DNA of 64,000 nt, taken from NCBI GenBank assembly GCA_918797485.1, contig CAKKNE010000004.1, positions 558,001 to 622,000 on the forward strand, given 5' to 3'. The DNA comes from Pelagomonas calceolata. Taxonomy: Eukaryota. Below the pieces are notes generated by a model, which was not told the origin of the DNA, ran no database searches, and saw only the letters and a program-made list of their open reading frames with translations. Numbering within the stretch: position 1 is the first letter of the stretch; each line of letters begins with the position of its first letter. This document shows, in pieces, positions 5,969-55,155 of this stretch. A program made the translations under genes and the position numbers.

Positions 5969-7638
5969 ATGCTGCGACGCATCGCTGCGCTCATACTCAT
6001 CTGCAGCCATGCCAGTGCACTGCGGCCGACGCGGCGCCAGGCGCTAAAGGGCACGGCAGGCTCCACAGTCATGCTCAATTTTTTACCAGGAGCTGCGCGA
6101 GCCGCCGCGAAGGGCCTCGGTTTGCCTACAAAGGAAACCAACGACGTCGTCAGCACCGTGGACGGCATCCGCCGCAAACGACTGGGCAACTCGGACATCG
6201 CCGTCAGCGAGCTCGCACTTGGGACGCAGCGCTGGGGCGGCGCCGACTTCAATAGTCCGGACGAGGAGTTGTGCCATCAGCTGTTGGATCGGGGCGTGCT
6301 CGAGGGTGGCATCAACCTAATTGACACGGCGGAGCAGTACCCGATCCCCTCGGACCGCTCTAGACCGGAGGGCGCGACGGAGGAGATCATCGGCCGATGG
6401 CTCAAGAAAGGCACCGGCCGACGAAACAAAGTAGTGCTGGCCTCAAAAATCACCGGCGGCCGCAACATCAACAAGCGTAGCATCCGAGAGGACTGCGAGG
6501 GCTCTCTGAAAAGATTAGGTGTGGACACGTTAGATGTCTACTTATTACACTGGCCGGCGCGCTACACGCCGCAAAGCAACTGGGGCGCGCCGCCGCGTCG
6601 AAGCCGTCGACGCCACGCCATCGACGCGACCCCCACGTAGGTCAATCGCTGGAGTACGACTGGGATTTAGGAGCGATCACGGTGCCGTCGGCCGCGAGTT
6701 TCCGGGAAATCGTGAGTGCCATGGGCGAGCTGATCAGAGAGGGTCCGCGCCGGTGCCGCTACAGACAATTTACGGGGGACTGTCGCGTCGATGGCGTACC
6801 GCACAGGCAAAATCAGAGGCTACGGCGCCTGCAACGACAACGCCGTGGGTCTCATGGGTCGCGCGCCAGTGCAGAAGTCATCGCGTCGGCCTCCACGCCG
6901 TCGACGCTCATCGCACACAGGCATGTACGGCGCCGCGCGCGAGCTCGGCGTGCCCGGGCCGCTCTGCATGCAGAACGACTACTCGATCGTGAATAGAAGG
7001 GTCGAGGAGAACGGCCTCTCGGAGGCGTCGTCGCCGGCGATCGCGAACGCTGGATTCATGGCGTACAACGTGCTCGCGGGCGGCATGCTGACGGGCAAGT
7101 ACGGGCTTGCGCCCGGCGACGGCGTCGCGCCCGCGGCCGTCGACGACGGCGACCGCGCCCGGGCCAAGAGGTATGCGGAAGCACCTAGGGGCCGGATGGA
7201 CACGCGGGGCTGGGGCCTGACATTGGGACGATACCGCACGACCGCGATGCGGAGCGCGGCTGCGCAGTACACCAAACTAGCGAAGGAGTACGGAATCAAG
7301 GGCGGTCCCGCGCGGCGTCCTGCTCCAAGGTCTGGACTCACGCCCGACGCCATCGACGCGCCACCGAGTCGCATCCGCGCGCAGGCCTGACCGAGCTGTC
7401 CTTCCGCTTCGTCGCCGGGCGGAAAGCGGTGACGTCGTCGCTCGTCGGCCACACGTCCCTCGCCCAGCTCGACGCGTCCATCGACGCCTACCGGAAGGCG
7501 GCGAAGGGCCCGCTCCCGGACCAGCTTCTGTGGGACATCGACCGCGTGCATCTACAAAATAGGTTGCCGCTCTTCGCGAACGACGAGGCCGGCAAGGATT
7601 GGAGAAATGAGGGCTTCATCGGGGAGCGCATTCCATGA
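5969..7638 (+). CDS. Aldo/keto reductase (Tas-like) with signal peptide; 5 exons
   Basis: AKR motifs LALGT, IDTAEQY, VLASK, LKRLGVDTLDVYLLHWP, GKIRGYG, QNDYS, LAGGMLTGKY. Three ORFs join in frame after removing introns 6585-6640 (GC-AG), 6743-6806, 6858-6920 and 7305-7384. Confidence 0.9.
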
Positions 7639-7869
7639 CGATCGCTTGATACTGCCTTCCCGTACGCCATCGACGCGGCATCGCGGCGATGGCGTGGTGG
7701 GATAGATTACGCCAGTCTGGCTCTACACCACCTCCACGCCATCGAGGCGACTCGCGCTCGCGTGGACGCCACCAGCGGGCGTGTTTGTTTAAGTTATAGG
7801 TCACCTTACAGCAACCTAACAGCGGCACGCGCCCTTACCTCTCGGATCGTTGAGCGCGCTCCACCGAAT

Positions 7870-8319
7870 CTACTTGTCCTCGGGCGCCTGCGCCTTGAGG
7901 TACGTCAGCAGCACGGACAACGCGCGCGTGTCCTCGCCGAACTCCGTCACGCACGCCGCCGAGCACCGGACCACCGACGTCGCCTCGCCCTCTTCATTAA
8001 TCTTGCAGAGGCCCGCCCACTCGCCGAGCTGCTTGCCCTCGTCGACCATAACTAACGACACGCCGCCCTCGTCGCACAAAGCGCGGACGAGGTTGCTGTA
8101 CTCGGCGTTGTCGCAGTCCTTGGCCAGGCAGCACAATTTGGCCGTTCTCGAATCGAGGGCCTTGGCGACCTCGCGCAGGCCGCGCTTCAGGCCACCGTGA
8201 ATGAGGGCGCGCTTCAGGACATCCCGCAGCGCGTCCAGCACGGACATCTCGGCCACTTCCACTTCCCCTTCAGCAGGGGCGTCGGCGGGGGCCTCCTCCA
8301 TCGGTTCGTCGTCGGCCAT
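7870..8319 (-). CDS. RPS12: 40S ribosomal protein S12 (eS12)
   Basis: ALIHGGLKRGLREVAKALD...LGEWAGLCKI...VVRCS is the eS12 signature. Confidence 0.95.
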   Translation of the reverse strand: MADDEPMEEAPADAPAEGEVEVAEMSVLDALRDVLKRALIHGGLKRGLREVAKALDSRTAKLCCLAKDCDNAEYSNLVRALCDEGGVSLVMVDEGKQLGEWAGLCKINEEGEATSVVRCSAACVTEFGEDTRALSVLLTYLKAQAPEDK

Positions 8320-9018
8320 CTTTGTTTTTTTTTGCCTGCGTGTGTTGTGTGACGCGTCGGCGGCGTTTGGGCGTGGGCGTTTGCTCTCATGCGCCTTTCA
8401 TGTGTCGCTGTTGACGGTGAGTGGCGCGCCAGGCTTGCTCGCTGATGCAAAGCGAGGCCCGGCGCCCGCGCGCGACCCGCTCGGCGGATTGCGGCGTGCG
8501 CGTGGCACGCATTCGCCGCCGCGCCGCGCTGCACTGCCCTCAGCTGCCTTGGTCGCTAGCTGCTCCAGGAGTGCTCGCTGAGCGCCGCGCTTGCAAGCAG
8601 GCGCGCAGTGATGACGCTTTTGCATTCTTAAGTGGTTAAAGCTGTCGCTGATGTTCACCAGACGCTGTTGTGCACGATTTATTGCGATCGCCTGCTAAAA
8701 CTCGTAAATCGCCTTTTTTGAGGCCCACTAAACTTGCTAAAAGTGAAACAGTGAAACGACACCCGTGCCTGCCCGAGGTCTCACCCACCCATGGAGAACA
8801 CGGTGGCGCCGGACGCGTCCGCCGCGCGCGCCCCTTCAAGTATCCAAGCTTCCAAGCTTTCCTGCCCAAGCTCGGTCTCGCAAGTTTGCTCACTGCCGCC
8901 CGAGGTCTTACCAAAGGCTGCCAAGGAGCAGAGCAAAGGGCATCCGCCAACCACCCGCCAAGCCACGAGCTGCCCCCGTAGCCCGCCCCGCCGCAAAAGG
9001 CAGCAGCCACGACACACC

Positions 9019-10011: not shown

Positions 10012-10036
10012 ACCCTTCGTGTAAAATATAAACAAA

Positions 10037-10615: not shown

Positions 10616-10993
10616 GGTATCCGCGGCGGTGGCATTCCCGCCGCGGGAGCTGTTAGATGCTGCTTGTTATGAACCTGCAGCACTGCTTGGCCGCTGGCCG
10701 GCGAGAAGCGCCAAAACTTGCAGAGGCCCGAGATTTCGTCAAATGCAGCCTTCCTGGCAGCTCACAGCCACTGTCGACTCAGTTGAAGGGGCGTATGGGG
10801 CCACTCCGAGCATCAACACCAAAAGCTGCGAGAGACGTGTCCTTGATGCTCGGCGGACGGAGCCCCTCCTGGGGCTGGGCAATCATACCTGCACCGAGCG
10901 ACGGCTCCGAAAAAACGAGTCCCGACGCGTACTTGACGTCCCGCGGCGCGCGGTCGACGCGCGCACCGAGCAGTGTGGACAAATAAGCTAAAG

Positions 10994-13402: not shown

Positions 13403-13537
13403 GTATCTATGGGGGTCTTTCGCGTCGATGGCGTGTACGCGTGCGAGCCGATTCGCGTGCGGGTTCGTCGGCTGATGCCAGTGATGGAGTCGCCTTGCCA
13501 AGCTGCGTAGCTCGCCGCTGCCTCCACCCCCGCCAGC

Positions 13538-16502: not shown

Positions 16503-16706
16503 GGCTAACCTCCTTTGCGCGCCGCTGGCTGGTTTCTATTTTAAATGCAATTGGGCCTCGCCGCAAAAGGCTGGTTTGTACGGTGCTGGGACCCGAACTC
16601 GTGCGCCAGCGCGAATTCGCAGTGCAGAGACGACCTAGAAAGGCGCCAGTCGCACCGCTAGGGGCTCGCGGCCGAGCACTGGCTTTAGCCTCCGCTGGAA
16701 TGATTA

Positions 16707-16729
16707 GCTAGCGGCATGTAGACACTAGC
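16707..16729 (-). promoter_or_regulatory. Recurrent GCTAG...CTAGC element
   Basis: gctagcggcatgtagacactagc, about 200 bp upstream of the minus-strand ATG at 16502. Confidence 0.55.
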
Positions 16730-16899
16730 AAGCAAGCAGCAGCCCTTGGGTCTGAAGACCACGTACAGTCATTACGCTTGCTCCGCGGGACGCCTCCTGA
16801 GTCGGCCAAAATCCCGGGCGAAAAACCCGAGGCCGCGAAGTGTCCTCGAGTATAAATCCGGGCCCTGCGCGAGAACCGCGCGCGGAGACCGCTTCAGAT

Positions 16900-18243
16900 C
16901 TCGAAAACAAGAGGATCGTCCGTTAAAAAACCGCCGGCCCGCGCCGCCGGGCGCGGGCGCGGCAAGAGCTCGGGCTCGGGCGGAGCAAAAAAAAAGAGCT
17001 CAAGGGGCCCAGCGAGTAAACGCGCTCCTGCGCGCCGAGAGCAGGGCGAAAAGCGCGAAAAGCGTAAGCGACGCCGTCGCGGCGACGCCGCCGACGAGCA
17101 ATCACGTTCAGGAGAGGAGGCGCACGGCCGTGGCGCGGCCGGCGTAAATGAAAATGACGTACCGCGCGAGAAGAAGCCGCGAGAAACAGAACAAGGACAG
17201 GAAGCACAAGTTCCGGCCGGGCCTCTGAGGGGGGCGGCCGGTGAAAACCGTGACACTGGTCCAGTTTTGCGTACGCCAGAGTCGATTGGACTCTCACCGG
17301 GGAGAAAAGCCGGCGGCAAGAGAGTGAGAGATGCACAAGTGTCGCGTGGAGACGCGATCAGTACGACCTTGGCGGATGGTGACGCAAGCCAGGTCGAGAA
17401 CGACCCTCCAGAAGGGGAGAACGCCGAGGTTCGCCAGGACGGGAATAGTGATGATGCGGGCGAGCCTGCGGCAAAGAAAGCGAGGGAAGAGTCGGGCCAG
17501 GAGACGGCGCCGGCTCCGGATGAGTCGCAGAACAACGCCGACGGTGAAGCGTCGGACGTGCAAGATCCAGCAACGGTGCTGGCCAACTCGATCCGGGGGT
17601 TCCTGAGGCGTTACCTCAAGAATTACCTAAAGTACGACCGGGTTGCAGGTCGTGCGAGAAAATTGACGGCGGGCGTGCTGCGGGCCGCGTTTAGCCGCCA
17701 GCAGCTTCAGGACCTGGTCGCGGCCCAGAAACGGGGACCAATAATGTGGACGCGGACGCCGCGGCATCGGCCATCGCCGATGTACACGAAATGGTTCGTC
17801 CTTTGAGGGATCTGTACGGCGTGCAGTGGTCCAGATTCGACGCCCTCCTGGCGGCCGCCGTGCGTGCGATGGCGGCGGCGCGGGCGCGCGGCGACGACCG
17901 CCGCCTGTTCAGCGCGGAGACGCTCGCTGCTGCTTTGATCAATGGCAAGGACGTGCTAAAGTTCGGGTCCACTTCGATATGGCCGTTCCTGGACCTGCTG
18001 AAGAAGAGAAACGCTCGGGCTTGCCAAGTACGGTCCAAGCTCGCGGGCGTGCTGGACGGTGGCGCGGACGAGTACACGCTACCGAGTCGGGAGGAGGTCG
18101 AGGCCGAGCTCGATGCCGCGCGCGCGGCCGCCGCTGCAAACGCGCCGCCGCCGCCGCCGCCGGCGCCGGCGCCGCCAGCGCCTCGCGAACGGTCGACGCG
18201 CGCCAAGCGTAACCCGCGGGCCGGGTGGAACAGGTACGGTTAG
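16900..18243 (+). pseudogene. Possible degenerate or frameshifted gene for a basic/acidic low-complexity protein
   Basis: A long open frame from about 16855 to 17806 has no ATG until its very end. Protein-like sequence switches to the 17746..18243 frame near 17730-17745, where I see no convincing intron. Confidence 0.35.
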
Positions 18244-18479
18244 ACGAAGGAGGCGCCGTACCTCGAGAACATGCCGATGAGTAAGGAGCGCATGATGGGA
18301 TATCACAAGAGTAGATAGTCTCCGCCGTCTCGCGGACTGCCCCGGGCACGTCACAACCGTCGCTAGTCTTTATCTACGCGCCAGCACCGCTAGGGACGTC
18401 GCTAGGGGTCAGCAGCCGAGCACTGCTTGCAGCTTCCAGATGGAGGTCGCTAGCGTAGCTAGCGTACTAGCCTTGAAAC

Positions 18480-21867: not shown

Positions 21868-22271
21868 CTTGTCGATGTGTAGGTCACGTAGAATCGATGA
21901 ATGGACAATGTGTCTCGCCCTTAGCTGTTTACCAGTGCACACCGGCTAGATCGAGGCTGGATTTTGGCAAGATTAACTTCGAGCTGATAGGTCGATAGAC
22001 ACACTAGACCGCGACAGCTCTCTACGGCGGAAGTCGCGGGACAAGTTTATCGGACGGGCGAACGCTGCACACTGTTCGGGAGGTTGCCGAGGCGGCCCTG
22101 CTTAGAAGGAGGTGCGCTGTTATGAAAGACGCGGCAGGCGCCGCCGCCGATGAATCGGCGACGCGCGTTGTCTCCCCCCCCCGAGCTCCGCCCACTAGTC
22201 CTAGCACCACATAGGGTCCTCCCAGCATGACGCCGCCGACGCGACCCCTCGAAACAAACCACAGCCTAGCC

Positions 22272-23779: not shown

Positions 23780-25979
23780 ATGCCCACCGCCAAGCGCCGA
23801 GATCCAAACGCGAGGCTCGGCATGCCGCCAAAAAGTCAAAACAGGAGTGGAGGCGACATGCGCCGCTTCGTCAAGTCCAAGGACGTCGAGAAGAAGCCCC
23901 AGGCCTGGGCCGTGGGGCTGGACAAGTGGACCTTGTCCTTTTCCAATTCGGCACTTGACGGTGAGTGGAGGCGCCTCGTCGCGGGCCGTTCCAGAGCGCT
24001 GTGGCTCCGATCGCTACTGAGCGCCACCCTATACCAAGCCCTGCGCCACGCGGCGGACACGGCGCAGTTCGGGCCGGCGCCGCAGTGGGTCGTCGCGGTC
24101 CGATTGGTGCTGGCGGTCACCGAAGTGCTGCTGTTCGCCGTGGCCTACTGCGACTTATTACGACCTAGTCAGGCCGCCATCGCGGCGAACGCGTTCTTGT
24201 ACGGCATCGTGGAGCTGGCGTTGGTCGTTGATAGATTGAGGCCGCGCGTCGCTCCCGGGGATTGGCTGCACGTCCGCGACGCAGCGTCCTCGAAGCTGAC
24301 GCCATCGACGCGCCACGGCCTACCTCGCGTCGATGGCGTGGGGGCTGGCGCTCGCGACGCGCGCGCCTCACGCACGAACCACACAGGTCACGTACGGCCT
24401 GGCCTGGTTCATCGTGCCCAAGATGTCCGCTTTACAATTCTTTCCCGCGTGTTTAGGGTCCTGTGCGATTGTCGGCTGGTGGTCCTTGCTTTCTCTTGCG
24501 ACGATGGCTACTCCCCCGGAAGGCGCGAGGTACGGTGTGGGAGGTGATTTATGGAGGTTGCTACGGAGGTGGGCGCCCTTCGCGACACCCGTACGTATCC
24601 AAGAGTGCACGGGCGTCGACTGCGTCCAACGAACACTAGCAGCACTTGAGGAGTCGTCGGTTGTCAGACGAACAAGCTGGCAGGACGCGTCGGCGGGCTT
24701 AGCGTTAGTAGTGCCGGTAGTGGTCCTCTTCAACGTCGTCGCCTACTCGTCCGAGAAGTCCGTCAAGGAGCGGTTCGTGCTCAGAAGTGCGCTCGCCCAC
24801 GAACATCGCCACGACGTCCGCCTGTCATTACTAGGCGACGACGCGTCGCAGATGCTGTCTCGCTTGCAAGATGCGGTGAAGGCGCCTCGATTGAGACCGC
24901 CTGAAAACCGCAATGACAGGTTACTCTTAGCGGCGATACCAGCGGTATTACTTGCAGCATCAGGCTACTTTCCCTCGATCCCGTCCTTCACCGGTTCACT
25001 AGCTTCCTCAGCTTTTGGCGGCCCGGATGCCGCTTGGGCCGCTTTATCTCATGTGTTCGGGCTGAGTTTATTTCTACTCGTTCTGACGAAAAGAGTCAAA
25101 TTCCTACTCCTGACACCTCTCGTAGTAGCAGCTCTCTTCTACTTAGCTGCCCAAACATTGGTGGAGACGGATTCAAGAACAAAACTATTCCGGTGGGCCG
25201 GGAGCGTTGTCCTCGCCGCGTTTGTGCTAGGAGCATTTCGCGTAGCGCGACTCTTCGCGGCACTCCTCCACTTCGCTAGACGAACCTTGTTCCTCTACCC
25301 CCACCTGGAGGAAAATCTCAAGGAACATAGTGACGGGGAGGTCCTGGGCCGCCTTGTCGCGAAAGTCGAGCTGCCAAGGCCAAACAACCCGGGCGCGGTG
25401 CGCGGCGCGTTGGACACGACGACGCCGAACGAGGGCGAGTCCGAACAAAGTCTGTGTTCTTTAGGGTCGTACCGGTCCGAGGAGTCGTCGCAATCTGTGT
25501 GGAAATCAAATTTCGGGCGCCCCACGCCATCGACGCGACGTTGTCGCCGTGACCGCGTCGGTTCGATGGCGTGATTAACCTAACTCACTGGCTGATTTCC
25601 ACACAGGTCGCAATCGATTGGGCCGCTACCCGTGCTCCCGCTGGGATCGCATGATAGAGCCTGCGCTTTTTGTTCGCACGATCCCGGATCTACAAGCTGT
25701 CAAGCGACGCACGCCGTGCCCGTGTGCGGCGCGTGGGCGTCCTGGTACCTATGGAGAGCGGAGCGGGCGAAAAAAATGGATAGGGCGCGGAACGAGGTCT
25801 CGTCTCCCGTTGACGAGGGGCCCTCCCTGAGGCCGTGCTGCGACTTCGCGACGCTGGCGCTTGAACGAAGTGCGCTGCAGCGCGAGAACGCGTCGCTGCG
25901 CGCGCAGATCGCCTCTCTGAGAGCCCGCGAGCGGTCGCCGCCCTCTTCGCCTCCTGAACCTCAGCGGCCGCTCGAGTAA
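23780..25979 (+). CDS. Multi-pass membrane protein with a C-terminal Cys-rich (possible Zn-binding) and coiled-coil tail; 3 exons
   Basis: ORFs 23780.., 24333.. and 25632.. join in frame via introns 24272-24386 and 25487-25606. Many hydrophobic segments; CAFC...C...VCGAW tail. Confidence 0.75.
25495..25606 (+). mobile_element. Introner element (non-autonomous MITE-like DNA transposon forming an intron)
   Basis: Perfect 14-bp TIRs ctgtgtggaaatca (25495-25508) and tgatttccacacag (25593-25606). 8-bp direct repeat gtcgcaat at 25487-25494 and 25607-25614. Confidence 0.92.
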
Positions 25980-27859: not shown

Positions 27860-27973
27860 GCTCTCCGAGTCGCCCGGGCGGACCTACTCCGCCCTCGGCC
27901 GCTGGCTCCTCTCCTCCTTGAACCGCTCGGGCTCCGCCCTCGACCGCTGGTTTTCGCACTAAGGCACCATACT
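27860..27973 (+). repeat. 3' flank duplicated at 29082-29197
   Basis: gctctccgagtcgcccgggcggacctactccgccctcggccgctggctc...ctcgaccgctggttttcgcac is near-identical downstream of both surface-protein genes. Confidence 0.9.
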
Positions 27974-29081: not shown

Positions 29082-29197
29082 GCTCTCCGAGTCGCCCGGG
29101 CGGACCTACTCCGCCCTCGGCCGCTGGCTCCCCTCCTCCTTGAACCGCTCGGGCCTCCGCCCTCGACCGCTGGTTTTCGCACCTAAGACACCGTACT
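29082..29197 (+). repeat. Second copy of the duplicated 3' flank
   Basis: Near-identical to 27860-27973. Confidence 0.9.
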
Positions 29198-33671: not shown

Positions 33672-36600
33672 TTAACATACCTCCGTAGACAACCCGAGCG
33701 CCTCCAAGACCCCGGCCGTGTCCACGGCGTCCACCGAGCACTCATCCGACAATACCACGGGCCGCCGCGACTGGACGGGAGCGTCATCTCTAGAACCAAG
33801 AGCCATCCCCAAATTCCGCTCGTGCTCGACGCGCTCGTCCACCACCGCCACGATGGACTCCCGTATTTTCTGATAATCGGTAGCCTCGAGGGCAGACGTG
33901 ATCGTCGCGGCGAAGGCGCTCTCGGCGTTCGCGTGGCGCGGCGACCTCGCCACGGGCGTGGTCGATCCATCCAACGACGCTACCAACTGGTCGACTTCTG
34001 ATGGTGCCAGATCTAACAATGATGCTGCTACTAAACCAGCAGTAGGCGTCGAAGATGTCGAGGCCAATTGCGCGGCTCGGTCCCGCGCGCGATCCAGGCC
34101 TCGCGCCAACCGGACCCCGACGTCCTTGATCGCATTGCCCAGCGCGTCCGCGCGCCTTGCGGTTCGTAACCTAGCAGCCCTTGCTTGGTCGTAATCTGCT
34201 GATTTCCTTCCTAACATGGCCTTGCACTCGTCCAGTTTCCGAGTTAACACGGTCTTCTCCCGCTCGAAGGCGTCCTGGGCCACCGTCAGCTTCCGGTGGG
34301 CCGCCCTTTCTCTCACCACAGCTTCTCCCCGCCGGTGCTCGGCCTTCTCCTCGCGCGCGATGATCGTCGACATCTTCTCCTCGAGGATGCGCTTCTCGTG
34401 GGCCATCTCGTCCTTCTGTTGCCGGATGTCCCGCAGCCGTCGGCGCGCCGCCTCGTCCGTGCGCTTCCGCTGCGCGTCCTCTTCCGCCCGCAATCGATCC
34501 TTCTCGACGACTTCCCGGCGCGGCGACTTCGACTGCGAGGCCGTCTGCAAGGCGCCGACCCGCAGCTTCAGCGTCGCCGTTCTACTCTTCGCTTCCAGCA
34601 GTTCCGCGTGCTGCTTGTCGTACCTTTTTTGTAATTCGTCCTTCTCCCTCCGGAAGTCCTGGAAGACCTTGCGTTGCCTCTTGGCATCGCTTCGGACGTC
34701 GTTCAGATCCTTGCGGGATTGCGTCCTCAGAGCCTCCTCCCTTTTTAGTGCATCGGTTGTGCGCTGCTTTTCGACAACGAGATCTCGTTCAGCATCCGAC
34801 GCGCGCTTCTCCGCGAGTGAGGCCTTTTGTTGCGCACTTTCGACGGCCAACCGACATCTATCTTCGGCAGCTTTCGCGCGTTGCGAAGCAGCATCGGCGC
34901 GCTTCCGAGCTTCTTCCGCCAGCACGCCAGCCCCCTCCAACCTCCCCAGGTTCTTCTCGGCCTCGGCGAGCTTCTGTCGAGCGGCCTGCGCGTCTTCACA
35001 AGCAAGTTCTGCTCGTTTGTCGGCATCTTCCGCGCGGGCTTCCAGTCTAGCGGCCTCGGCGAGGACCTCGAGGTTCTTCGCCGACTTCAACGAGCGTAAA
35101 TCCTCCTTCAGTCGTGCCTGCGCGGGACGACGCCGTCACGAAACTTGTCGAGAACAGAGGAACGCGTCGCGTCGATGGCGTGGAGGCTCGACGGCGCCCT
35201 CAGACACAGTCGATGCGATCTTGAAGTTCAGAAAACCTCAGAAACAGACGCTGAGTCAGCACGACCTCGACCTCCATATCTGCACGAGAAGAGGCCTCGC
35301 GGCCCGCGCGGCGCTCCGCACTAGCTCTCGCGGTAGATTCATCATTTAGACGTTGTTGCGTATCGGCGAGGGCGGCCTCGAGCTCCGTCGCGCGCTTTTC
35401 GAGCGTTTGGAGCGCCTCCGACGGTTTATCACTGGTAGCCATGTTCTGGATCCGGTCCATGCGCGCGAGGACCGCTTGCGCGAGCGCCTTCGCGTCGTCG
35501 TCGGTCGCCGTGACGCGGTGGACGGCGCGAGCTTCCGCTTGGGCGGCCCTTGCTCGCAAGTCCAAGGAGCTTCTGGTAGCGTCCGCTTGGGCCGCCTCGG
35601 CCGCGGCGCATCGGGCTTCCAGGGCGCTCTTCTCGAGGCGCAAGGCGGATAACGCACCTCTCACTTCTCTAACGTCATTCTCGGCGCGCTTCTGGGCGTC
35701 TCTCGCCTGAGACGCCTCGTCGGCGAGCTGCATCGCTTCCCGTCGTAGTGAGGACACTTCTGGGTCCTTCGGGGTCTTGACGTGGAAGTCCTCCTCCTCT
35801 TCCTCGACGCCTCTTCGCGCCAGGCGATACTGTAGCGAGTCCGCCCGTCTCTCAGACGTCTCCAGTCTCGCTTCCAGGCGTGCTAAGCCAGCTCTCGACT
35901 CTAACAAAGCCGCCTTGGCGTCCCGCTCTGATGAACACGCGGAGAGAACGTCGTCGACGTAGGACCGCCAGCGCGGCGATGAACGTAATCCAGCACCGGA
36001 GCGACTGGCCGCCTGGACCGCCACGGAGGCGAGCTCGGCAGCTGCGGCGCGATCGGCCTGCGCCCTCGTCGCGGCCGTTTCGCGCTCCAGCGCCTCGACG
36101 GCGTCCGCTTTTTGTGATGTCATCTCGACTAAACGCGCCTCTAGTATGTGAGAGCGCTCTTTTTCGGCCGTGACCCGTCGCTCGGCCTCCTCTAAAGCTC
36201 GCGCCGTCGCACCTAACGTAGTATCCTCCTTCTCCGGTAAACGATCAGCTAATGCTGAACGATCAATGCCGTGCAGTGATAAAGCCTCCTGGAGGGCCTC
36301 GGACGCATCTGAAGCGCGCGCGTCGGCTAGATCTCTAGCCCTTTCCGCGACGGTCGCGCGACACCGCGCCGCGGCTAAAGCTTTGTTCGACGTGGCTTGC
36401 TGTTCAGCAAACAAGGAGTCCTTCGCGGCCTGCGCGGCTAACGACGCGGCGAGCGCTCGCCTTGTAAGGTCCTCATTTGCATCCTTCGTACCGTCCTGGT
36501 GCGAACAGCGACACCTTGCTCTTAACCGCTCGAGCCGATGTCTTTCGCCCGCCTCCTCGTGCAATCTTTGTGATAATGCGCAGCACCTTGACCGAACGTC

Positions 36601-37800: not shown

Positions 37801-37824
37801 GCTAGCGGCATGTAAGACACTAGC
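37801..37824 (-). promoter_or_regulatory. Recurrent GCTAG...CTAGC element
   Basis: gctagcggcatgtaagacactagc, 115 bp upstream of the minus-strand ATG at 37686, in a tandem intergenic gap. Confidence 0.6.
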
Positions 37825-37888
37825 AATCAGAACGCATCGCTCAATCGACAAACCTTACGCCCGACGATAGAAATCAACAGCACAACCC

Positions 37889-40044
37889 CTAGACCGCCAC
37901 CGTCGCGCACATGCGCGACAGGTCCTGGGCCTCGGCCCGCTCGAGCCCGATGGCGACGAAGTCGTCGACGGACAGATATCTCAAATCCTCGACGGACTCG
38001 ATCTCCTCCCGTCTAAATAAAGGCAGGTGCCTTGATAAACCCGCCGCCGCGAGCACGGAAGAGATGTCCGTCGCCGGCCGCCGCGTCTCCCGGAGCGACG
38101 CCGCCAGCGCCCGCGCCAGATCGTCGTCCTGGTGCACCGGTTGCTGGGAGGCCTCCCGCGCGGATAAAGCCAGGACGGCCCGCAATTCCGCGTCGTCGTC
38201 CATCGCGGGTGGTGCGGGAGGCCGCTCGCGCGCACTCAAAGCCAACGCCGCTCGCAATTCAGCATCTTCATCCACAGGCGGCGGCTGGGCAGCAGATGCC
38301 GCCAGCGCCGCGCGCAAGTCCGCGTCGTCGTCCTCGAGCTCCGCGGGCCGGTCCCATGTCGTCAAACCACGACCCGCATGTTCGTAGTACGTTCTTCCGG
38401 AAGACGGGTCTTGCAACGCGACCCAGCCCGTGGAGGATGGCGGCGGCTGGCTGGCGAGCGCTCTTGCTGATGCCGTCGGCGACACGGTTGAGGGCTGCTG
38501 GGCCGCGGCGAGGAGGCGGCTCGCCTCGGGCGTCGTTTGTTGGGCGGCGGCGCCGTCGGCGCGCGCTGCGGCGCGGGCGCGGGCGCGGGCGCCGACGGAG
38601 ACGCGGCCGGCGCCGGCGTCGGCCGCGGGCGCGGCAGCGGCGAATGCGCCGTTTGTGGGACCGCCAAAGGCGCCTCCGCGGAAGCCGCCGTCCGCCGGCG
38701 CGGCGAAGGCGCTGAAGGCTCCCGTTCCGCTATCACTGCTAAAGGCGCCGCCGTAGAGGCCGCCGCCGAGGCCGGGCGACGCCGCGCGGGCACTACTGCC
38801 CCCGAAGCCGTTCGTTCCGCCGCTGCCGAAGGCGCCGCCGCCGTACGCCGACGGCCCCATCAGATCGTTTGACGGCTGGCTCTCCGCTCGAGACGCGGCC
38901 AGAGCCCGCTCCAGCTCGTCATCTTCCGCCTCTTGCCTTCTTTGATCCGCCTCCCGCGACTCCCTCAATGCCCTTTGGTAGGCATCCTCTCCGGTGTGGC
39001 CCTCTGGTCTACGTCCTCGACATCTTCTGGATGCACAAGCGTCCCGTCTACGGATATTCGGCCGGCCACAAAGAGAACAGCGCCAGTCGCCCGGCAACAG
39101 CGGTTCGGTCCTAGGATCATAACCGCTCTCCTGGGCCCGTCTACTTTCGGGCAGCTCCGGTGCAGGTTTACCATCAAGAGTCGGCCACGACGCCTCCGGT
39201 GTTTTAGGTGGCGCAAACGCTCCTGTCGACACCGTGACGGCAGGCGCCTGCTGCTGCTGTTTAGCTTGCCACTTCCTCTTGAAGGCCTGGAAGCCGCCCG
39301 CGGCGAAAGGTTTACTTGGGTCGGGCGTCGGCACGCGCGGCGCCAATTTACGGGGCGGGGGCAGCTGGATCGCCACCGGTTGCGGTTCCGTTTTGGTCTC
39401 CTCCTTCGGTGGCGAGGCCGGCGCGGCCGGCGCGGCGTCGTCGGCGTTGCCTGCGCGGAAGGCGACCGGTGATACGCCGTCGACGCGACGGCGGCGTCCT
39501 TACACGTTGCGGACGCGGAAGCCGCACCGCCCTTCACATAACCAGCACAAGCCCCCAAGTCGACGTCCGGCAGGGGCCCCGACGGCGCCCGAGGTCTAGG
39601 AGATTGCGACTTCTTCCGCTGCACCACAGTAGTACTAGTACCAACTAACTCCCTTTCTCTCAACCCTCGCTTGTAGCACTCGTAGCCCAGCAGCTTCCAC
39701 TCGTCCGCGATCTTCCGCCCACCTTTATTACATTCACATCTATCCCTATAGGTGATACCGCGGTAGAAACCTAATCGATGCGTCCTCTTGCACTTCTGGC
39801 ACTTACTGCCGTCGTCGGGCGGGACTTCCCAACTTCTCATCTGGGGCGACAGGTCCCACCACAATCCGGTAAACGCTTTCAGTTTTTGTGGATCATCAGA
39901 GGCGCCTATTCTCCTGGCCCAGGCTTCGCCGTGCTTGCATAATTGTTGTCTTTCTCGGAGGGCGGTCTCCAAAGCTTCGCTGGGCACCACTTCAATGTTC
40001 TGGAAGCCGACGGCTGCTGCGCTTCTTCGGCGCTGCTTGACCAT
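37889..40044 (-). CDS. Multidomain protein: RanBP2-type Zn finger, UIMs, WW and SAM; 2 exons
   Basis: GDWRCSLCGRPNIRRRDAC; repeated DxELRAALALS (UIM); GWVALQDPSSGRTYYEH...TTWDRP (WW); C-terminal SAM. Intron 39451-39527 joins the two ORFs. Confidence 0.85.
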
Positions 40045-41443: not shown

Positions 41444-41515
41444 TGAACATACTGCTTGCTCCTTTCTCTGCGGTCCTGTGGCCTTGCGGGACCGTCTACG
41501 GAGATCTGCGGAAAT

Positions 41516-41539
41516 GCTAGTGTCTTATAGGCCGCTAGC
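41516..41539 (+). promoter_or_regulatory. Recurrent GCTAG...CTAGC element
   Basis: gctagtgtcttataggccgctagc, about 180 bp upstream of the plus-strand ATG at 41720. Confidence 0.6.
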
Positions 41540-41719
41540 CCGCATCGGCTTCGGGTCGCAGGCCTATTACAGCGCGTCGGCTCATAGTCAGGAGCTCTCA
41601 CGCCTACAATTTATCAACCAGATCGCTGCGAAACGCTGCATCTGGGCAGCACGCTGCTCACCCATCGCTGCGGCGACATTTCACCTGCTCTGCATAAATA
41701 TTAAAAGCAGCATAATAAG

Positions 41720-44029: not shown

Positions 44030-44054
44030 GCTAGCGGCATTGTAACACACTAGC
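44030..44054 (-). promoter_or_regulatory. Recurrent GCTAG...CTAGC element
   Basis: gctagcggcattgtaacacactagc in a divergent intergenic gap, oriented with the gene starting at 43826. Confidence 0.5.
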
Positions 44055-44257
44055 CAGCATTTTAGTTTTTGCGGCTCTACGGCTTTACGGCTGCTTAGGC
44101 TGCTCATAACGCCGCAGCGGGCTGCCTCGGATCGCTGCGGACGCTACTGACCACTTGTGCGCAGCCCAGCTCGCTCACAGCCCCTGGGGGCAGCACTCTC
44201 AAAAAGAGATCCACCAGCACGCCATCGACGCCATCGACGCGACACGCGACCGCAGCC

Positions 44258-46433
44258 ATGGACCACCCCCTGAACCAAGCTTCGATAGATGGCTTGGACG
44301 AGATGGACAAGATCCTGAAGGGCATGGCCGAGTTGGATGGGGACACGACGCCGCACGCCGACGCGAGCCTCGAGGCATTGCGGAGGGGCGAGAAATCTTT
44401 GAAGGACGAGTGGCCTGTTGGAATGGATGAAAATGTGGAAAAACTGATAAAAGCGGCGCGGAACGCTAGAGAACAAAAACCGAACACGGACGTGACGGTC
44501 GAGGGGCAAGTGGCGGAGCTCGTCGAGGCCGCGAATGAAAAGCTGCAGCGGGCCACGAAAAACAGTGTGAGGGACGCCTTGCGGACGTACGACGAGGTGT
44601 TGGCTTCCGGTGCTCAAGGTGAATATTTAGTACCTTTATTAGTGAACAGGGCCATCGCGCTGGACGCGCTCGGGGAGTGCTCGGCCGCGGCCGAATCTGT
44701 GCGACTGGCGATGGACGCGCTGCCGCCTGATAGTGAAAAGAGGCAAGAGTTACAAAGGTTGCGGGACGAGTTCGAATCTGCCGCATTGGAGAAGCCTACT
44801 GACGTTCCTTCGCATGAAGGGGATGCTGCCGCGATGCTGAACGCGTTGAATGCGCCTCCCGAACCGGCAGAGGGCGGTGCTCCGTTCCCGCCGCCGCCGC
44901 CGCCTGCCTCCATACCTGCGCATAAGCACGTGCGCCGCGGGCCTCCGCTGCGATTTTCTGAGAGTGACAGAAGTGAAGCTTGTACGTCGAAGGATGCCGG
45001 CAATCTTCATCTGAGGGAGGGCAACGTATCTCAAGCGTTGGTAGAGTATGGGAATGCGATCAAAAAAGATCCTGATGATGCGATCCTCTGGTCGAACCGT
45101 TCAGTCGCGTTCCTACAGTTGTCGGAAGACAACGACACGACAGCGGCACAAGCGGCCGCCGACGCGTTGCGAGCCGTGACCTGCGATCCAAACTGGCCTA
45201 GAGGTTATTGTACCCTGGGGGATGCGTTGTTGCGGCTCGGCTCGCCGTTGGAGGCCCTCGAAGCGTTTCTAGATGGGGCTCGAGTAGCAAGAGACGCGGG
45301 TCGCTTGGAGGACGCGTTCGAGCTGGACCGGAAGGGGCGCGACGCGCGCGACGCGGTTTTGAAGCGGCGTCCTTGTGTCTGCTCGATGGCGTCTGAGACA
45401 CAACTCCGCGCAGGCCCAGCAGGAGACGGAGCGTTTGAGAGAGCAGCTCAAGAGCGGAACTGTCCAGAAGGAGCCCGCCCGGACGAAGAGCGTCACGTCT
45501 AGATTGGCGTATCGGGCTTGCGCCGAGGCGCCGCGCGACCGGTCTGTATTTGAGAGGCTTGCGCAAGGTACCTCCGTCGAAGTTTTTAAGAGCCACGGCC
45601 TCGGGCTGAGGGTGACAAGGGACGTCCAAGCAGGCGAAGTTTTACTCCAAGAAAAGGCCCTCTGTGTTATCTCATTGCGGGACGACGCGTGCCTCATTTG
45701 CGCCGCGAAGCTGGAGCGGGAGCAGTCCTTCTGCTGCGGTGCGTGCGAAGCGCTCTTCGAGAAACGAGTAACGGGTGCCTCAAAACGGTTCCGCGCCCAT
45801 CGACGGTCGCTGGAGGCCGAGGGGTGCGTCGTCGGGGCGGGCTTTCATTCACTAGCGGCATCGCAACTCTTTGGTGTTGATGGTGAAGATTTGCGCGTCC
45901 TCGAAGCACTATTGAGGCCGGGCGATCTAGCGGAGAGGCCTTTACTAGCTTTCTCGGACCGCCACGCGTTGATACAAGACATTGACGAGTTGCGGCACGG
46001 TCCGGAGGATGACGGGGACTATGTGCGCAGAAGGCGTCAGACGGCCTCGATTGATTTCGGCCGCGTCGACGCCTTGGCCGGCGCGCTGGAGATGAACAAT
46101 CTGATTGTGCGCGGTGGCGAGGCGGTTGTGATACCTCGACTCGCGTGTCTAGCCAACCACGACTCGCGGCCGTCCTGTGAAGTGTGGCTCGGCGACGAGC
46201 GAAGCTTGGAGGTCGTCGCATGTCACGACATGAAGGCCGGCGACGAAGTTACTTTGGATTATTGCGCGTGTAGCGCGACGGTCGATCACAGAAGGATGGT
46301 CCTCGGGCCGTTCGGACTGGCTCATCTGGCGGCCGTGGAGCTCGTGGAAGATATCGAGGAGGAGTTTCCTGATTATGTGCCGGAGAATCGGCGACGGGTC
46401 GATCCGGCTCCTCCTGGGCCTCCTGGGGAGTAG
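44258..46433 (+). CDS. TPR + SET domain (SMYD-like) protein; 2 exons
   Basis: TPR KDAGN...ILWSNRS...PNWPRGY; SET GLGLRVTRDVQAGEVL...ANHDSRPSC...GDEVTLDY. Joined by an intron ending at 45413 (donor GC 45344 or GT 45356). Confidence 0.85.
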
Positions 46434-47439: not shown

Positions 47440-48957
47440 TTAAGATGGAAACTCGCCGCCGCCTCCCTCGCGCGGCGGCGTCAGCAACGCGCCAGTCGGC
47501 CGCAGCGCCCTAGGAGGAGGCGATCCGCGCAGCGGCGAGGGCGTCGGCCGTTTGCCGACGACGGACGGCGCCGCGATGCCTGGGGCCGCCAACGTATTCA
47601 CGGGCGACACGTCGACGAGCTCGAAGATGCCGCGCGACCGCGACCGCCGCCGGTAGAAGAGGAAGCTGACGATAAAGACAGCAAGAAGGACGCACGTGAC
47701 GACGACGGCCACGGCCGCGGCGGTCGCGACCTTGGCGTCGCTCGTCGACGAAGAGCTTTTATCAGAGGAGGTCCCTCGTCGGCCCTCGATGAAGCCGAGC
47801 GCGGTCTCGATCTCGTCGGCGCGGCCGCAGACGTGGCCAGCTTTTACTGTACACTCGACGGTTTCTCTGGAGGCGCCGACGAACGTGGAACACGACACGT
47901 CTCCATTTCCGTAGGCGTTGGTCGCGACGGGCGCGGCGGGCCCGCCGTGGTGGAGGCTCCACGCCCGCGTCACGTTGCGCGCGGCCGTGTAGTACCTGCG
48001 GTGCGTCGGACGGTGTGAGGACTCTGAGCGACGGCGTGGGGCTGGGGCTGCTCTGTGCTAGTGTGGTGTCCTGCTCGATGGCGTGGATGTTCACAAGTAC
48101 CACCAGTACGCCAACAACCGCCCTCCACGCCATCGACGCGGCTCATTGTCAGCAAGGACACGGGACACATACCAGCCGCGCTCGTCGTCCTCGTCTACGG
48201 TCGCGAGCGCGACGCCGGGGCCCGGCGCGTCCTCGCTCGCCTCGTACGGAATCGTCGTGTCGGAGAGGCCCCAGATCCCGAGCAGGTGGGCGGAGGACGA
48301 GGGCGGCCGCCAGAAGCCGGGGTGAGGCGCCCCCACGATCGACACGCCGCCGGCGAAGAGCCCTGCACTTCTTGAATCAGCTAGCGCCTCGTAGACCATC
48401 ATGGCCCCGTTCGAGCAGCCCGCGACCCACACCTGCTCCAGGTCCACGCACAGCATCTTCTCGACCGCTTCGAGCGCATCTAACAAGACTCGCGTCGAGT
48501 CCTCGCACGTCGTCCACCAGCAGCCGTCCGAGTTTTCGCACTCGCAGGTCTCGGCATAATAGGAGCAGTAGTCTGTACTACCAGGCTTGCAGGTGGCGCC
48601 GCGCGGCCCTGGACTTGAACTGCTGCCTCCGGCGTTCCAGCTCTGCCAGTTTTCCGGCCCGCTGCCTTCCAGCGCTGCCGTAGCGATGCCTTTTTTCCTT
48701 GCTGTTGATGCGAAGGCGTCGCCCTCGGACGCGTCGCCGCCCCAGCCGTGCATGTATAGAATAAGGGGCACTGGCGTTTCGTAGTCGTAGTCTTGTGGCA
48801 GCGTCAAGATGTGGTTGTGGCCGTCTAGCGCGAGCGGTAATGACTCCATCCCCACATATTCGAGGATGTCCGTGCTCTCGACGCCGCAGCCCGAGCTCAC
48901 GGCGCCGGCGGCCACGCGCGCAACCGCGGCGACAGCGAGGAGCCGCCGGCATGCCAT
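47440..48957 (-). CDS. Alpha/beta hydrolase (PHB-depolymerase/LpqC-like esterase) with signal peptide and C-terminal TM; 2 exons
   Basis: PLILYMHGWG; WNAG; VAGCSNGAMM (GxSxG). GT-AG intron 47996-48172 joins to the ...GHVC...TM exon. Confidence 0.85.
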
Positions 48958-49543: not shown

Positions 49544-50414
49544 ATGGCGGGGTTGAAAGCAGCAATCGTCGCGCTGGCCCTGAGCACTGCCAGCTGCTTT
49601 CAGCAGGCACCGCAGACCGGCGCCGCGCGTGGCCGCCCGCGCCTGAAATCCTACTGGTGCCTTCACTCGGAGCATTTCCGACGCGGGGATGCGGTCGCGC
49701 GGCACCGCTTTGAACCTTGCGCCGTCCGCACCGTCGCGTCGCCGCGCAGGCCAAGGCGTCATCGTCAACGGCTACGTCCCCAGCGGCATGTCGCCCGAGG
49801 CCTACGCCGCCATGAAGAAGCGCGAAGAAGACGCGCGCAAGAAGAAGCAGTTCGGAAAAGGAGGAGCTAGAGGTTTTGAAAGCAGAAGCATGCAGTCGTT
49901 CGTCGCGGGCCTCGAAAAAGGAGAGACCAAACATTTGTTCCCGGTCAACCCGGAGAAGGTGCGCAAGGGCGAGATCGCCCTGAAGGACGTGCCCTACATG
50001 CAGCGCGGCGGCTCCTGGACGAACTCCGACCTCACGCAAAAGAAAAAGGGCTGGATGAACACGGGCTTCGGCATGAACGCCTACAACGACGGCAAGGCCA
50101 AGGCCCAGAAGGCCAACAAATATGACGCGAAGTATAATGCGGTCAAGCCGTCCGTCGGGATTTTCGGCGACGCCGGGGCGCTCGACTGGACGGGCCGAGG
50201 TGCCCGCGCGGGCGGAGGTGCGCAAGCCGGTACCAGGGATGGCCTCGTGAATCGGGCCAAAGCGAATGGATTGTCCAGAGATCAGCAGATGTGGCGCGAC
50301 GCCGGGGCGTTATCTCAGAAACAAATAAACGCCCAGAAGCGCTGGGGCGGTGCGCCGAAGATCGACGTCAACGGCGCCAAGAAGCCGGAGAAGAAGTTCT
50401 TCGGGCTCTTTTAA
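49544..50414 (+). CDS. Plastid-targeted hypothetical protein; 2 exons
   Basis: MAGLKAAIVALALSTASC-FQQAP bipartite presequence. A phase-1 intron ending at 49749 (donor GT 49629 or GC 49620) joins to YVPSGMSPEAY...KKFFGLF. Confidence 0.8.
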
Positions 50415-50542
50415 GGCCGGTCGCGGTCCGGTCTACGTGTTTCGAGACGGCCCGCCCAAGTCTAGGGCCGAGGGGGTACTATCGCTGTCTAAGTGCCCGT
50501 TATTGTAGTGCCATCGCGGCGATGGCGTACGGTGGTAGCACA

Positions 50543-52590: not shown

Positions 52591-52599
52591 TAACTTTAT

Positions 52600-53337: not shown

Positions 53338-53428
53338 CGTTGCAAGTCGACAGCGCCGGGTCAAATATAGCTCCTGGCTGTGATTTTCTCGCGTCCGCGA
53401 TGAATTGCGCTTCAGCCGCAAAAGCCGA

Positions 53429-53452
53429 GCTAGCGTCCGGTAAGACACTAGC
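53429..53452 (-). promoter_or_regulatory. Recurrent GCTAG...CTAGC element
   Basis: gctagcgtccggtaagacactagc, about 90 bp upstream of the minus-strand ATG at 53337. Confidence 0.6.
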
Positions 53453-53602
53453 AACAGGCTAGTATGTTTCAAGGGGCAGCGTCCGTCCAGCGCCCCGCGG
53501 CCCATCCAACAAACTACGGACGGAAGAAGGCCCACAAAGCCACGGAAGCCACCAACGTAACTACGGGCAGCACGCCATCGCAGCCCGACAACACCAACAA
53601 CG

Positions 53603-55027
53603 ATGCTGGCCAAGATGAGCCCGCGCGTCCAGCCCCTGGAACACGACCCCGAGTCTCCTGCCCCGCGTTTACAAACGCCCCCCGGACCGTCCAGTGGGAC
53701 ACAACAACCCTTCGCCGACACGATGGACGAGCAGTGGCCCGGGCCCGATTCGCCCCCGAAGACCAGCACGCCCTCGTTCCACAATTACGATGATGAGGAA
53801 GAGAAGGACCCCGACGAGGTCTTCGGTCCGCTGCGGAATCGAGCCTCGGCTTTGAGAGGTGCGGCGGAGAACGGCGACGCCTCGGCGCAAGTACGGTTGG
53901 GTTACATGTACGTCGATATAGGAGATCGTACAAATGCGGAGGACTTTTTTGGGAGAGCAGCCAGGAATCATGATGCGGACGCCCACTACGCCCTGGGCAT
54001 GCTCGCCAAAAGTGGACCGGAAGCGTCATCTACCGATGCCGCGGAGGTCGAGGCAGCTTATGCGGCAAGTGCCAGACATCTGTCGCGGGCGGCGAAGCAG
54101 GGCCACTCCTGGGCGGCCTACCACCTCGGGGACGCGTATGCGCGAGGGGTCGGTGTTGTTAGGGACCTGAAGATCGCGGAACGGTTTTTACGTTCAGCTG
54201 CTGCTGCCGGGTGTATCCCTGCGATGAACGCCCTAGGCGCCTGTCTCGAACGTTCAGCGAGAAATCCCGTCACCGAGACCTTAGATGTCCCCGAAGACGT
54301 CTTTACCAGTAAGCCTCCTGAGGAGGAGGACTCACCGAGCAAAGCTAAATCTGGAAGAGACCGGAAACTCAAGGACGCGTGTGTCTGGTACGCTCGCGCG
54401 GCCAAAGCCGGGGATCGCGACGCGCAGTGCAATTTGGGGCGGTGCCACTACCTGGGCATCGGCGTGCCCCGGGATCCGTCGCGTGCCCTTGACGTCTGGC
54501 TGCTGGCCGCGGACCGGGGCTGTCCGGCCTCGTGCAACAACGCGGCGGCATTACTCGCGAGGAAAGCCGCTGATGATGCGGGCGAGGGCGTGTTAGCCTT
54601 AGAAGCTGAAAGGTTATTACTACAAGCTGCGGAGTTGGAGAGTACCACCGCTCGCTTCAACGTCGCTGTGATTCGCTCAGCAGGTCTAGGGGACGTTGTG
54701 AAACATGAAGAGGAATCAATAAGGCAGTTGAGGCAGTCTGCTGAATCAGGTGAGCCCGCGGCGAATTTGGCTTTAGGTGACGCCTATGCGGCGGGCATCG
54801 GCGTGCCCCGCCAATCGGACAAGGAGGCGTTTCGGTGCTACAAGGTGGCCGCGGCCGCCGGCGAGCCCGACGGCCAGTATCGGTTGGGCTTGTGCTATGA
54901 GCGGGGCAAGGGCTGCATGGGCGACGCGCAGCGGGCGATGCGGTTGTACGATGCGGCTGCTAGGGCGGGTCACTTGGCAGCAGCGGCTCGGGCGGGTGCC
55001 ATGCAGACGGGGGGCGAGGAGTATTAA
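53603..55027 (+). CDS. Sel1-like repeat protein
   Basis: Repeated A(Q)xxLGxxYxxGxGV...AA..G motifs. Confidence 0.9.
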   Translation: MLAKMSPRVQPLEHDPESPAPRLQTPPGPSSGTQQPFADTMDEQWPGPDSPPKTSTPSFHNYDDEEEKDPDEVFGPLRNRASALRGAAENGDASAQVRLGYMYVDIGDRTNAEDFFGRAARNHDADAHYALGMLAKSGPEASSTDAAEVEAAYAASARHLSRAAKQGHSWAAYHLGDAYARGVGVVRDLKIAERFLRSAAAAGCIPAMNALGACLERSARNPVTETLDVPEDVFTSKPPEEEDSPSKAKSGRDRKLKDACVWYARAAKAGDRDAQCNLGRCHYLGIGVPRDPSRALDVWLLAADRGCPASCNNAAALLARKAADDAGEGVLALEAERLLLQAAELESTTARFNVAVIRSAGLGDVVKHEEESIRQLRQSAESGEPAANLALGDAYAAGIGVPRQSDKEAFRCYKVAAAAGEPDGQYRLGLCYERGKGCMGDAQRAMRLYDAAARAGHLAAAARAGAMQTGGEEY

Positions 55028-55155
55028 GGTACTTACAAATATCCGCGTCGATGGCGTCGATGGCGTCGAGGCGCTCCTTGCGTCCGTCGGGACGACCGAG
55101 GGCCCGGCACGCCATCGAGGCGCCGTCCCACGCGGCGGCGGCTCACAGAATGGAG

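What the first reader, a model, noticed from the sequence alone, without database searches (positions are those of the whole stretch)
6585..55056. One 13-mer (CGCCATCGACGCG) marks most introns and several intergenic gaps, often as hairpins
Seen: exact copies on either strand at 6616, 6784, 7348, 24300, 24326, 25525, 35168 and 48128 (all in inferred introns); at 7665, 13421, 44229 and 55044 (intergenic/UTR); and only one noticed in a CDS (55818). Variants occur in introns 6858-6920, 39451-39527 and the one ending at 45413, so 10 of 13 inferred introns carry it. It often appears as an inverted pair: 24299-24312/24326-24339 (perfect 14-bp stem), 48075-48087/48124-48136, and inside the intact introner. 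Noncoding DNA is a small part of the window, so the enrichment looks strong. Inference: most introns here are eroded descendants of one transposon family. The motif outlasts the TIRs and TSDs, which suggests it is retained for a function (splicing signal, RNA hairpin, or protein/chromatin binding site).
Basis: partly seen in the sequence, partly recalled or inferred. Interest (0 to 1): 0.8.

Follow-up and report, generated by a model that had tools for sequence, protein, structure and literature searches.

The report
Transposon repeat fossil tags algal introns
A short DNA word found in most introns of this marine alga is the repeated inner unit of a small transposon-like element that creates introns, and the short introns that carry it are likely worn-down copies of that element rather than carriers of a new splicing signal.

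Summary
The 13-mer is real: 13 exact copies against 0.02 expected, 8 of them in 1.2 kb of introns. It is the core of a ~19-nt arm repeated in alternating orientation inside an introner (14-bp TIR, 8-bp TSD, own AG, donor taken from the TSD); one intact copy lies at 25495-25606. Read-through proteins from wild relatives show 72 insertion sites, full-length copies with four arms, and same-site alleles differing by whole arm-to-arm units. All six introns I could check are present in some alleles and absent in others; one TIR-less window intron has a TIR-ending allele. Descent from one family is well supported. A host function is not: orientation and distance to the acceptor vary, single-arm introns do not fold unusually, and alleles lacking any intact arm occur at the frequency independence predicts. 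One thing is unexplained: neutral-deletion simulations keep TIRs more often than arms, the opposite of what is seen; AT-to-GC decay of the AT-rich ends plus arm-to-arm collapse is my likely answer. Pelagomonas introners are published; I found no description of the arm array. The scan's notes held nothing on this family.

The parts
25495..25606 (+). Intact 112-bp introner: perfect 14-bp TIRs (25495-25508, 25593-25606), forward arm at 25524, reverse arm at 25563, branch-like CTAAC, own AG; a collapsed allele of a longer element
   Evidence: folds at z -6.3; longer, shorter and empty alleles at this site; DNA contig depth 25,313 in its bin against about 180-190 for single-copy contigs (the tool warns this is no copy number)
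25487..25494 (+). Left copy of the 8-bp TSD, supplies the GT donor (intron 25487-25606)
   Evidence: 8 of 8 match to 25607-25614; removal restores the reading frame; joint not among those listed
25607..25614 (+). Right copy of the 8-bp TSD, exonic
6585..6640 (+). Aldo/keto reductase intron 1, GC-AG, 56 nt, sense arm at 6615; present in 45 and absent in 12 of 58 informative relatives (1 ambiguous)
6743..6806 (+). AKR intron 2, GT-AG, 64 nt, antisense arm at 6784; other alleles carry a sense core or no recognisable arm
   Evidence: RNA joint, 131 reads in X21
6858..6920 (+). AKR intron 3, 63 nt, sense arm with A>G; its 5' part resembles family sequence seen in read loose ends; absent in some alleles
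7305..7384 (+). AKR intron 4, 80 nt, sense arm at 7347; absent in P0169, P0170, P0173
7664..7752 (.). Forward-reverse-forward arm array in the AKR 3' UTR, no TIR
   Evidence: transcript end near 7798; z -3.3
13421..13434 (-). Single arm just after the uracil-DNA glycosylase stop codon
24272..24386 (+). 115-nt intron, a reverse-oriented derivative: arm pair 24299-24339 and 8 nt of TIR left at the 3' end; alleles are longer, shorter, TIR-ended or absent
35118..35205 (-). 88-nt intron with sense arm (35168-35181) and family-like flanks
39451..39527 (-). 77-nt intron, antisense arm with A>G at 39474
   Evidence: RNA joint in 4 of 4 runs
44219..44244 (+). Tandem 9-bp duplication of the core just upstream of the start codon at 44259
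   Evidence: no joint listed
45356..45413 (+). 58-nt intron, antisense second-type arm with about 10 nt of family flank
   Evidence: RNA joint in 4 of 4 runs
47996..48172 (-). 177-nt intron with two arms in reverse-then-forward order and a third degenerate one
   Evidence: RNA joint in 4 of 4 runs
49629..49749 (+). 121-nt spliced intron with no arm but a TIR-like end and GC at the next exon start (possible descendant that lost the motif)
50511..50530 (.). Variant arm between two convergent 3' ends
55044..55122 (.). Tandem-duplicated reverse cores plus a forward variant in overlapping 3' UTRs
55818..55830 (+). Copy inside a CDS, probably chance codon string

Best explanation
The 13-mer is the core of a roughly 19-nt arm repeated in alternating orientation inside a high-copy, TIR- and TSD-bearing introner, and the short motif-bearing introns and UTR copies are likely decayed insertions of that element in which the arm survives as a by-product rather than for a host function. 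Shown: the element's anatomy (14-bp TIR ending in AG, 8-bp TSD whose GY gives the donor, arms forward-reverse-forward-reverse over about 203 nt); same-site alleles that differ by whole arm-to-arm units; presence/absence of the introns among close relatives; splicing of four TIR-less relics. Inferred: the element moves by cut-and-paste with a trans-acting transposase; the arms are subterminal transposase-binding repeats; after insertion, deletion between same-orientation arms shrinks the element while always leaving an arm, slippage re-duplicates the core, and the AT-rich ends decay towards GC, so the TIR survives only as a C-R-C-R-Y-A-G acceptor and the TSD only as the GY that opens the next exon.
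For: Intact copy with TIR and 8 of 8 TSD. 107 of 120 listed read-through proteins begin at the left TIR with enough flank and fall into 72 insertion sites; 35 of 107 show two or more forward arms, which the one-unit query did not ask for. At the 40 sites whose last exon residue is A/S/T, the codon predicted to start with the donor's Y does so 25:1 (14 ambiguous; background 102:138, p 5e-8) and 0 of 40 are incompatible with the G (background 61 of 280, p 1.6e-4). At the window's own two sites, longer alleles carry an extra arm unit and the window allele equals a deletion between same-orientation arms (P0267; P0385, P0421, P0423, P0430, P0431; the reciprocal collapse in P0391); P0387 ends intron 24272 in a TIR. 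Reads from other loci join the arms to each other, to upstream family sequence and to the 3' TIR. 12 of 13 downstream exons start with GY. 8 of 9 arm-bearing relic introns end in CRCRYAG against 37 of 1,453 background YAG sites; of 42 differences from the TIR's last 10 nt over 12 introns, 32 are AT>GC and 4 GC>AT. Element ends are 35% and 42% GC, the arm region 73%. Of 41 readable alleles of intron 24272: both arms intact 18, one altered 19, neither intact 4, Fisher p 1.0 for independence. The 13-mer is absent from all 80 AKR loci fetched, nearly all from other organisms.
Against: Neutral-deletion simulations do not reproduce the pattern: an arm is kept in at most 0.29 (203-nt start) or 0.47 (short start) of cases, a TIR core in 0.12-0.94, arm-without-TIR in at most 0.14, and adding arm-to-arm collapse did not help; observed 7 of 7 short relics have an arm and none a TIR core. 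The GC-decay step is therefore needed and was not simulated. No TSD signal remains beyond the GY in the relics (1-4 of 8). For the introns at 6585, 6743, 7305 and 39451 similarity to the family barely exceeds the arm. In the reverse-arm alleles of intron 6743 the arm is unchanged while the 5' part varies. CRCRYAG and GY could be this lineage's general splice consensus, and AT>GC changes are expected from background composition. Allele evidence is amino-acid read-through from metagenome gene calls, may include sister species, transcripts or chimeric contigs, and rows are not independent. No transposase was found.
Confidence: 0.68

Rival explanations
1. The arm came from the introner but is now kept by the host as an orientation-free DNA signal (protein or nucleosome-linker/CpG-methylation site), so relics that keep an arm are favoured.
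For: Arm kept and TIR lost far more often than deletion simulations give; 25-fold higher density in introns than in other non-coding DNA and copies near several gene ends; arm invariant in the reverse-arm alleles of intron 6743; four CpGs in 13 nt; introners in related algae sit in nucleosome linkers (PMC9860276, passages).
Against: Arms of intron 24272 are altered in 23 of 41 readable alleles, with no deficit of double loss; four alleles of intron 6743 have no recognisable arm and most alleles of intron 6858 carry the A>G change; intron 49629 is spliced in 87-373 reads per run without it.
Confidence: 0.17
2. The arm itself, not the TIR, is the mobile or self-renewing unit: TIR-less arm-bearing segments are copied into GY sites or into existing introns and UTRs (ectopic conversion, template switching), making new short introns.
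For: TIR-less, TSD-less introns of 56-80 nt are present/absent among relatives 94-97% identical in protein, and two further TIR-less arm-bearing insertions occur at sites where the window has none; intron 6857-type and 6743 alleles differ in arm state and orientation at one site; tandem duplications of the core at 44219 and 55048.
Against: Relatives are about 13% diverged in DNA where I could see it (L055, my reading of the alignment), leaving time for decay; TIR remnants and a TIR-ending allele tie relics to the TIR element; no two short introns in the window are near-copies.
Confidence: 0.1
3. The motif is an RNA-level splicing signal (branch site or enhancer) or a conserved pre-mRNA hairpin.
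For: Enriched in introns; perfect 14-bp stem in intron 24272 (z -1.9 on a slightly longer interval) and strong fold of the intact element.
Against: Either orientation, 9-131 nt from the acceptor; 7 of 7 single-arm introns fold with z between -1.5 and +0.7; the intact element has a separate CTAAC near its acceptor; same motif in unspliced UTRs; no Rfam match.
Confidence: 0.05

Closest known systems
Putative introner elements of Pelagomonas calceolata (Guerin et al. 2022, PMC9481584; passages of main text and preprint, supplementary file 2 part 1 text read; Fig. S3 logo is a picture and was not seen)
   Same: Intron length peak about 210 bp, 956 putative IEs, GT and GC donors, AG acceptor, conserved TIR; genome 63% GC in Mb-sized contigs. 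The family here is about 203 nt plus 8 nt TSD and very probably the same one (inference; no tool named the organism).
   Different: That work counts only introns overlapping repeats over 90% of their length; the text I saw does not mention an internal arm array, collapse alleles, TIR-less relics or polymorphism.
TIR/TSD (MITE-type) introners of Aureococcus and the 'carries 3' site, co-opts 5' site from TSD' class (Gozashti et al. 2022, PMC9860276: passages, section 7, supplementary table rows; Huff et al. 2016 not held, recalled only)
   Same: Non-autonomous, TIRs, TSD, splice donor recruited from the TSD, GC donors; 8-bp TSD as in Aureococcus sp.
   Different: The rows I saw for a Pelagomonas MAG list four small families (80, 85, 177.5, 186 nt) with TSD and TIR left as '?'; no internal repeat is described in what I read.
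hAT transposons and MITEs with subterminal transposase-binding repeats (Hermes, bioRxiv 10.1101/2022.09.16.508221, passages; Emigrant/Lemi1, PMC1636448, abstract)
   Same: 8-bp TSD (hAT); short repeats in both orientations inside the ends, needed beyond the TIR.
   Different: Those repeats are 4-bp (Hermes); here the arm is 12-19 nt and fills the interior. No transposase is identified, so superfamily is unassigned.

Membership tests
TIR/TSD introner elements | Similar introns at many unrelated sites | tested here: met
   72 distinct insertion sites among 107 read-through proteins
TIR/TSD introner elements | Terminal inverted repeats | tested here: met
   Perfect 14 bp at 25495-25606; also in L055. 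Not met by the short relics
TIR/TSD introner elements | Target-site duplication | tested here: met
   8 of 8 for the intact copy; 1-4 of 8 for relics
TIR/TSD introner elements | One splice site carried, the other co-opted from the TSD | tested here: met
   AG ends the TIR; GY at -8/-7 across 40 sites
TIR/TSD introner elements | Precise removal from mRNA | tested here: inconclusive
   Shown for 4 arm-bearing relics; the intact copy's joint is not among the 15 of 197 joints listed
TIR/TSD introner elements | Recent gain: empty sites in relatives | tested here: met
   All four AKR introns and both introns of the 23780 gene are absent in some relatives; most outgroup AKR loci align without breaks at these sites, L058 and L059 break within a few residues and were not resolved
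TIR/TSD introner elements | Insertion in nucleosome linkers | not testable with these tools
   No MNase data
hAT superfamily | 8-bp TSD | tested here: met
hAT superfamily | Subterminal repeats bound by the transposase | not testable with these tools
   Repeats are present; binding cannot be tested
hAT superfamily | Autonomous partner encoding a hAT transposase | tested here: inconclusive
   No genome held; Pfam scan of 16 window ORFs found no transposase
P. calceolata IEs of Guerin et al. | Same TIR sequence | not testable with these tools
   Logo figure holds no text
Intronic splicing cis-element | Fixed orientation and position relative to the acceptor | tested here: not met
   4 sense, 3 antisense, 3 both; 9-131 nt (for the intact copy)
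Intronic splicing cis-element | Required for the intron to persist | tested here: not met
   Arm-less alleles and an arm-less spliced intron

The most novel reading that the evidence does not exclude
The arm is the active unit: after the TIRs are gone it still drives creation or turnover of short introns, or has been adopted by the host as an orientation-free chromatin signal, so that a single transposon word built and still shapes most introns of one of the ocean's most abundant eukaryotes.
Probability: 0.2. Interest if true: 0.8.

Novelty: new variant of a known kind. Interest (0 to 1): 0.52.

Why it matters
Introner surveys count only young, look-alike copies, so the share of ordinary introns that are old introners is unknown. 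Here a 12-19-nt arm works as a fossil tag: 10 of 13 introns in the window carry it while only one is an intact element, and wild alleles show the stages side by side (full array, collapsed, TIR-less, absent). If this holds genome-wide, most introns of this alga come from one family and the decay of an introner into an unremarkable 60-nt intron can be followed in population data.

Tried and rejected
No whole genome was held, so genome-wide enrichment was not measured. Viral scans: the 18-mer gave 13 loci and the 16-mer 106, nearly all single hits that look like coding coincidences; TIR-plus-motif patterns gave 0 and 0; the TIR alone 2 loci, not examined further. One AT-rich viral record has a single copy in 39 kb: treated as chance or a stray fragment. 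The GTDB scan gave 4 bacterial hits, about the chance number, not examined further. The metagenome scan returned one close relative among 80 loci (L055), which ends before the introns. Rfam: 0 matches. A tblastn returned nothing and was replaced. Neutral-deletion simulations failed to reproduce arm retention, reported as evidence against my reading. Paper searches: 'introner'+'pelagophyte', a 10-letter piece of the motif (20 of 28 listed, all unrelated by title), 'introner'+'Aureococcus' (22), and searches found no description of the arm array; supplements of PMC9481584 and PMC9860276 had no text hit for the motif, but figure pages, one PDF and cut files were not searchable, and Huff et al. 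2016 is not held. PMC12130899 and bioRxiv 10.1101/2024.10.30.620910 (passages only) added nothing on the motif; bioRxiv supplements were not seen.
Full report
Observation. The 13-mer occurs 13 times exactly where stated, against 0.02 expected; with two mismatches 49 against 9.2. On my manual annotation it is 25 times denser in introns than in other non-coding DNA and 300 times denser than in CDS, and 10 of 13 introns carry its core against 0.18 in shuffles. Poly(A) reads confirm five introns, four with the motif and one without. No joints were listed at 44220 or 55044, and transcript ends map near 7798, 50499 and 55033-55122, so the non-intron copies lie in UTRs or between convergent genes.

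Organism. The genes lie on a 5.3-Mb contig, GC is about 63%, donors are GT or GC and the DNA occurs in marine metatranscriptomes. I infer a Pelagomonas-like pelagophyte; no tool named it.

The element. 25495-25606 has perfect 14-bp TIRs, an 8-bp TSD, an AG at the TIR's end and a GT at the start of the left TSD, so splicing removes one TSD plus the element. DNA contigs pile on it at about 130 times the single-copy depth averaged over the bin (not a copy number). A relative's contig, L055, holds an 83-84-bp copy in the other orientation with one arm.

Family anatomy from read-through proteins. Prokaryotic-style gene calls on metagenome contigs run into introns, so a 40-residue query (15 exon, 25 element) retrieved 123 proteins, 120 listed. 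107 start at the left TIR with at least 12 residues of flank and give 72 sites. TIR and first arm co-occur by construction; the further arms do not. P0326 reads through a whole element of about 203 nt with arms forward-reverse-forward-reverse. The donor-in-TSD rule holds across the 40 sites where it can be read (25:1 and 0 of 40; the 30 sites ending in P, which mix orientations, were tabulated apart at 18:8). Among 16 sites with several alleles, many differ by whole arm-to-arm units.

The window's own sites. At 25487, P0267 has an extra reverse-plus-forward unit and then continues as the window does; the window allele equals a deletion between the two forward arms; P0462 and P0467 have no element, though they may be transcripts. 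At 24272, of 62 proteins with the anchor (85 examined) 9 lack the intron (5 of them carry another unspliced arm-bearing insertion nearby, so are genomic), 1 has a different insertion, 11 are truncated and 41 are readable: 18 both arms intact, 19 one altered, 4 neither; 7 have an extra unit; P0387 ends in a TIR. Read in reverse, the window's intron starts with 8 nt of TIR and has the arm pair placed as in the intact element. In the reductase gene all four introns are phase 1 in Gly codons; intron 1 is present in 45 and absent in 12 of 58 informative proteins (74 listed), 11 of the 12 retaining another intron; introns 2, 3 and 4 are each absent in some; intron 2 has reverse-arm, forward-core and arm-less forms.

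Relics keep more than the 13-mer. Introns 35118, 45356 and 47996 match family read-through beyond the arm, while 6585, 6743, 7305 and 39451 barely do; intron 6858 matches, by eye, about 48 nt of family sequence seen in read loose ends. 12 of 13 downstream exons start GY and 8 of 9 arm-bearing relics end CRCRYAG, the TIR end with A>G. Both could also be a lineage-wide splice consensus.

Why the arm outlasts the ends. But the tests for host function fail: no fixed strand or distance, no unusual fold for single-arm introns, frequent arm changes and no deficit of double loss, and a highly spliced arm-less intron. I therefore favour biased decay: collapse between arms leaves an arm (seen in alleles), slippage duplicates the core (44219, 55048), and the ends, 35-42% GC against 73% for the arm region, drift AT>GC (32 against 4). 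The last step is inferred and unsimulated; loss of TIRs may also be favoured because TIR-intact copies can be excised (inference). The arm's original role as a transposase-binding subterminal repeat is inferred by analogy with Hermes and Emigrant.

Known and new. It works like, and meets the testable features of, a TIR/TSD introner, and is probably the family counted by Guerin et al.. It is not assigned to hAT because no transposase was found. The arm array, collapse series and polymorphic TIR-less relics were not found in print in my searches, with the limits given under Tried and rejected. The scan's notes held nothing by sequence or place; one search listed analogous cases in other genomes that I did not test. 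Verdict: real, a new variant of a known kind, interest 0.52.

Noticed in passing
window 3178-3203 (+), 16706-16731 (+), 30136-30160 (-), 37801-37826 (+), 41515-41542 (-), 44032-44055 (+), 53428-53454 (+), 58368-58395 (-): A second, unrelated ~25-nt intergenic repeat (GCTAGC ... TAAGACACTAGCA-like) sits upstream of genes, often between divergent ones; DNA contig depth at 16719 reaches 26,284, so it is abundant genome-wide. Candidate promoter element or another small mobile family.
   Followed up: partly
window 25609-25618: A 10-bp palindrome spans the right TSD, and the spliced product has two more residues than the element-free relatives P0462 and P0467; could be the footprint of an earlier excision.
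   Followed up: no
L013 1500-1522: An AT-rich (37% GC) viral contig has one 18-nt arm just after a stop codon; only one copy in its 39-kb record.
   Followed up: partly
window 5540-5690: Only the 3' end of the gene that precedes the reductase in relative L055 is present; the window has a different gene upstream, suggesting a rearrangement or truncation.
   Followed up: no
window 6585; proteins P0009, P0171: The GC donor of reductase intron 1 reads as GT in two relatives, consistent with GC donors drifting to GT after insertion.
   Followed up: no
window 22216-22275 (-): Possible 3' UTR intron or relic with a two-mismatch arm at 22231; removing it did not extend the ORF in my test.
   Followed up: partly
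window 16700-18300: Repeat-rich, partly multicopy region with divergent RNA reads and no Pfam match.
   Followed up: no
window 27860-27932 and 29082-29154: Near-identical 73-nt 3' stretches after two neighbouring genes with similar C-termini.
   Followed up: no
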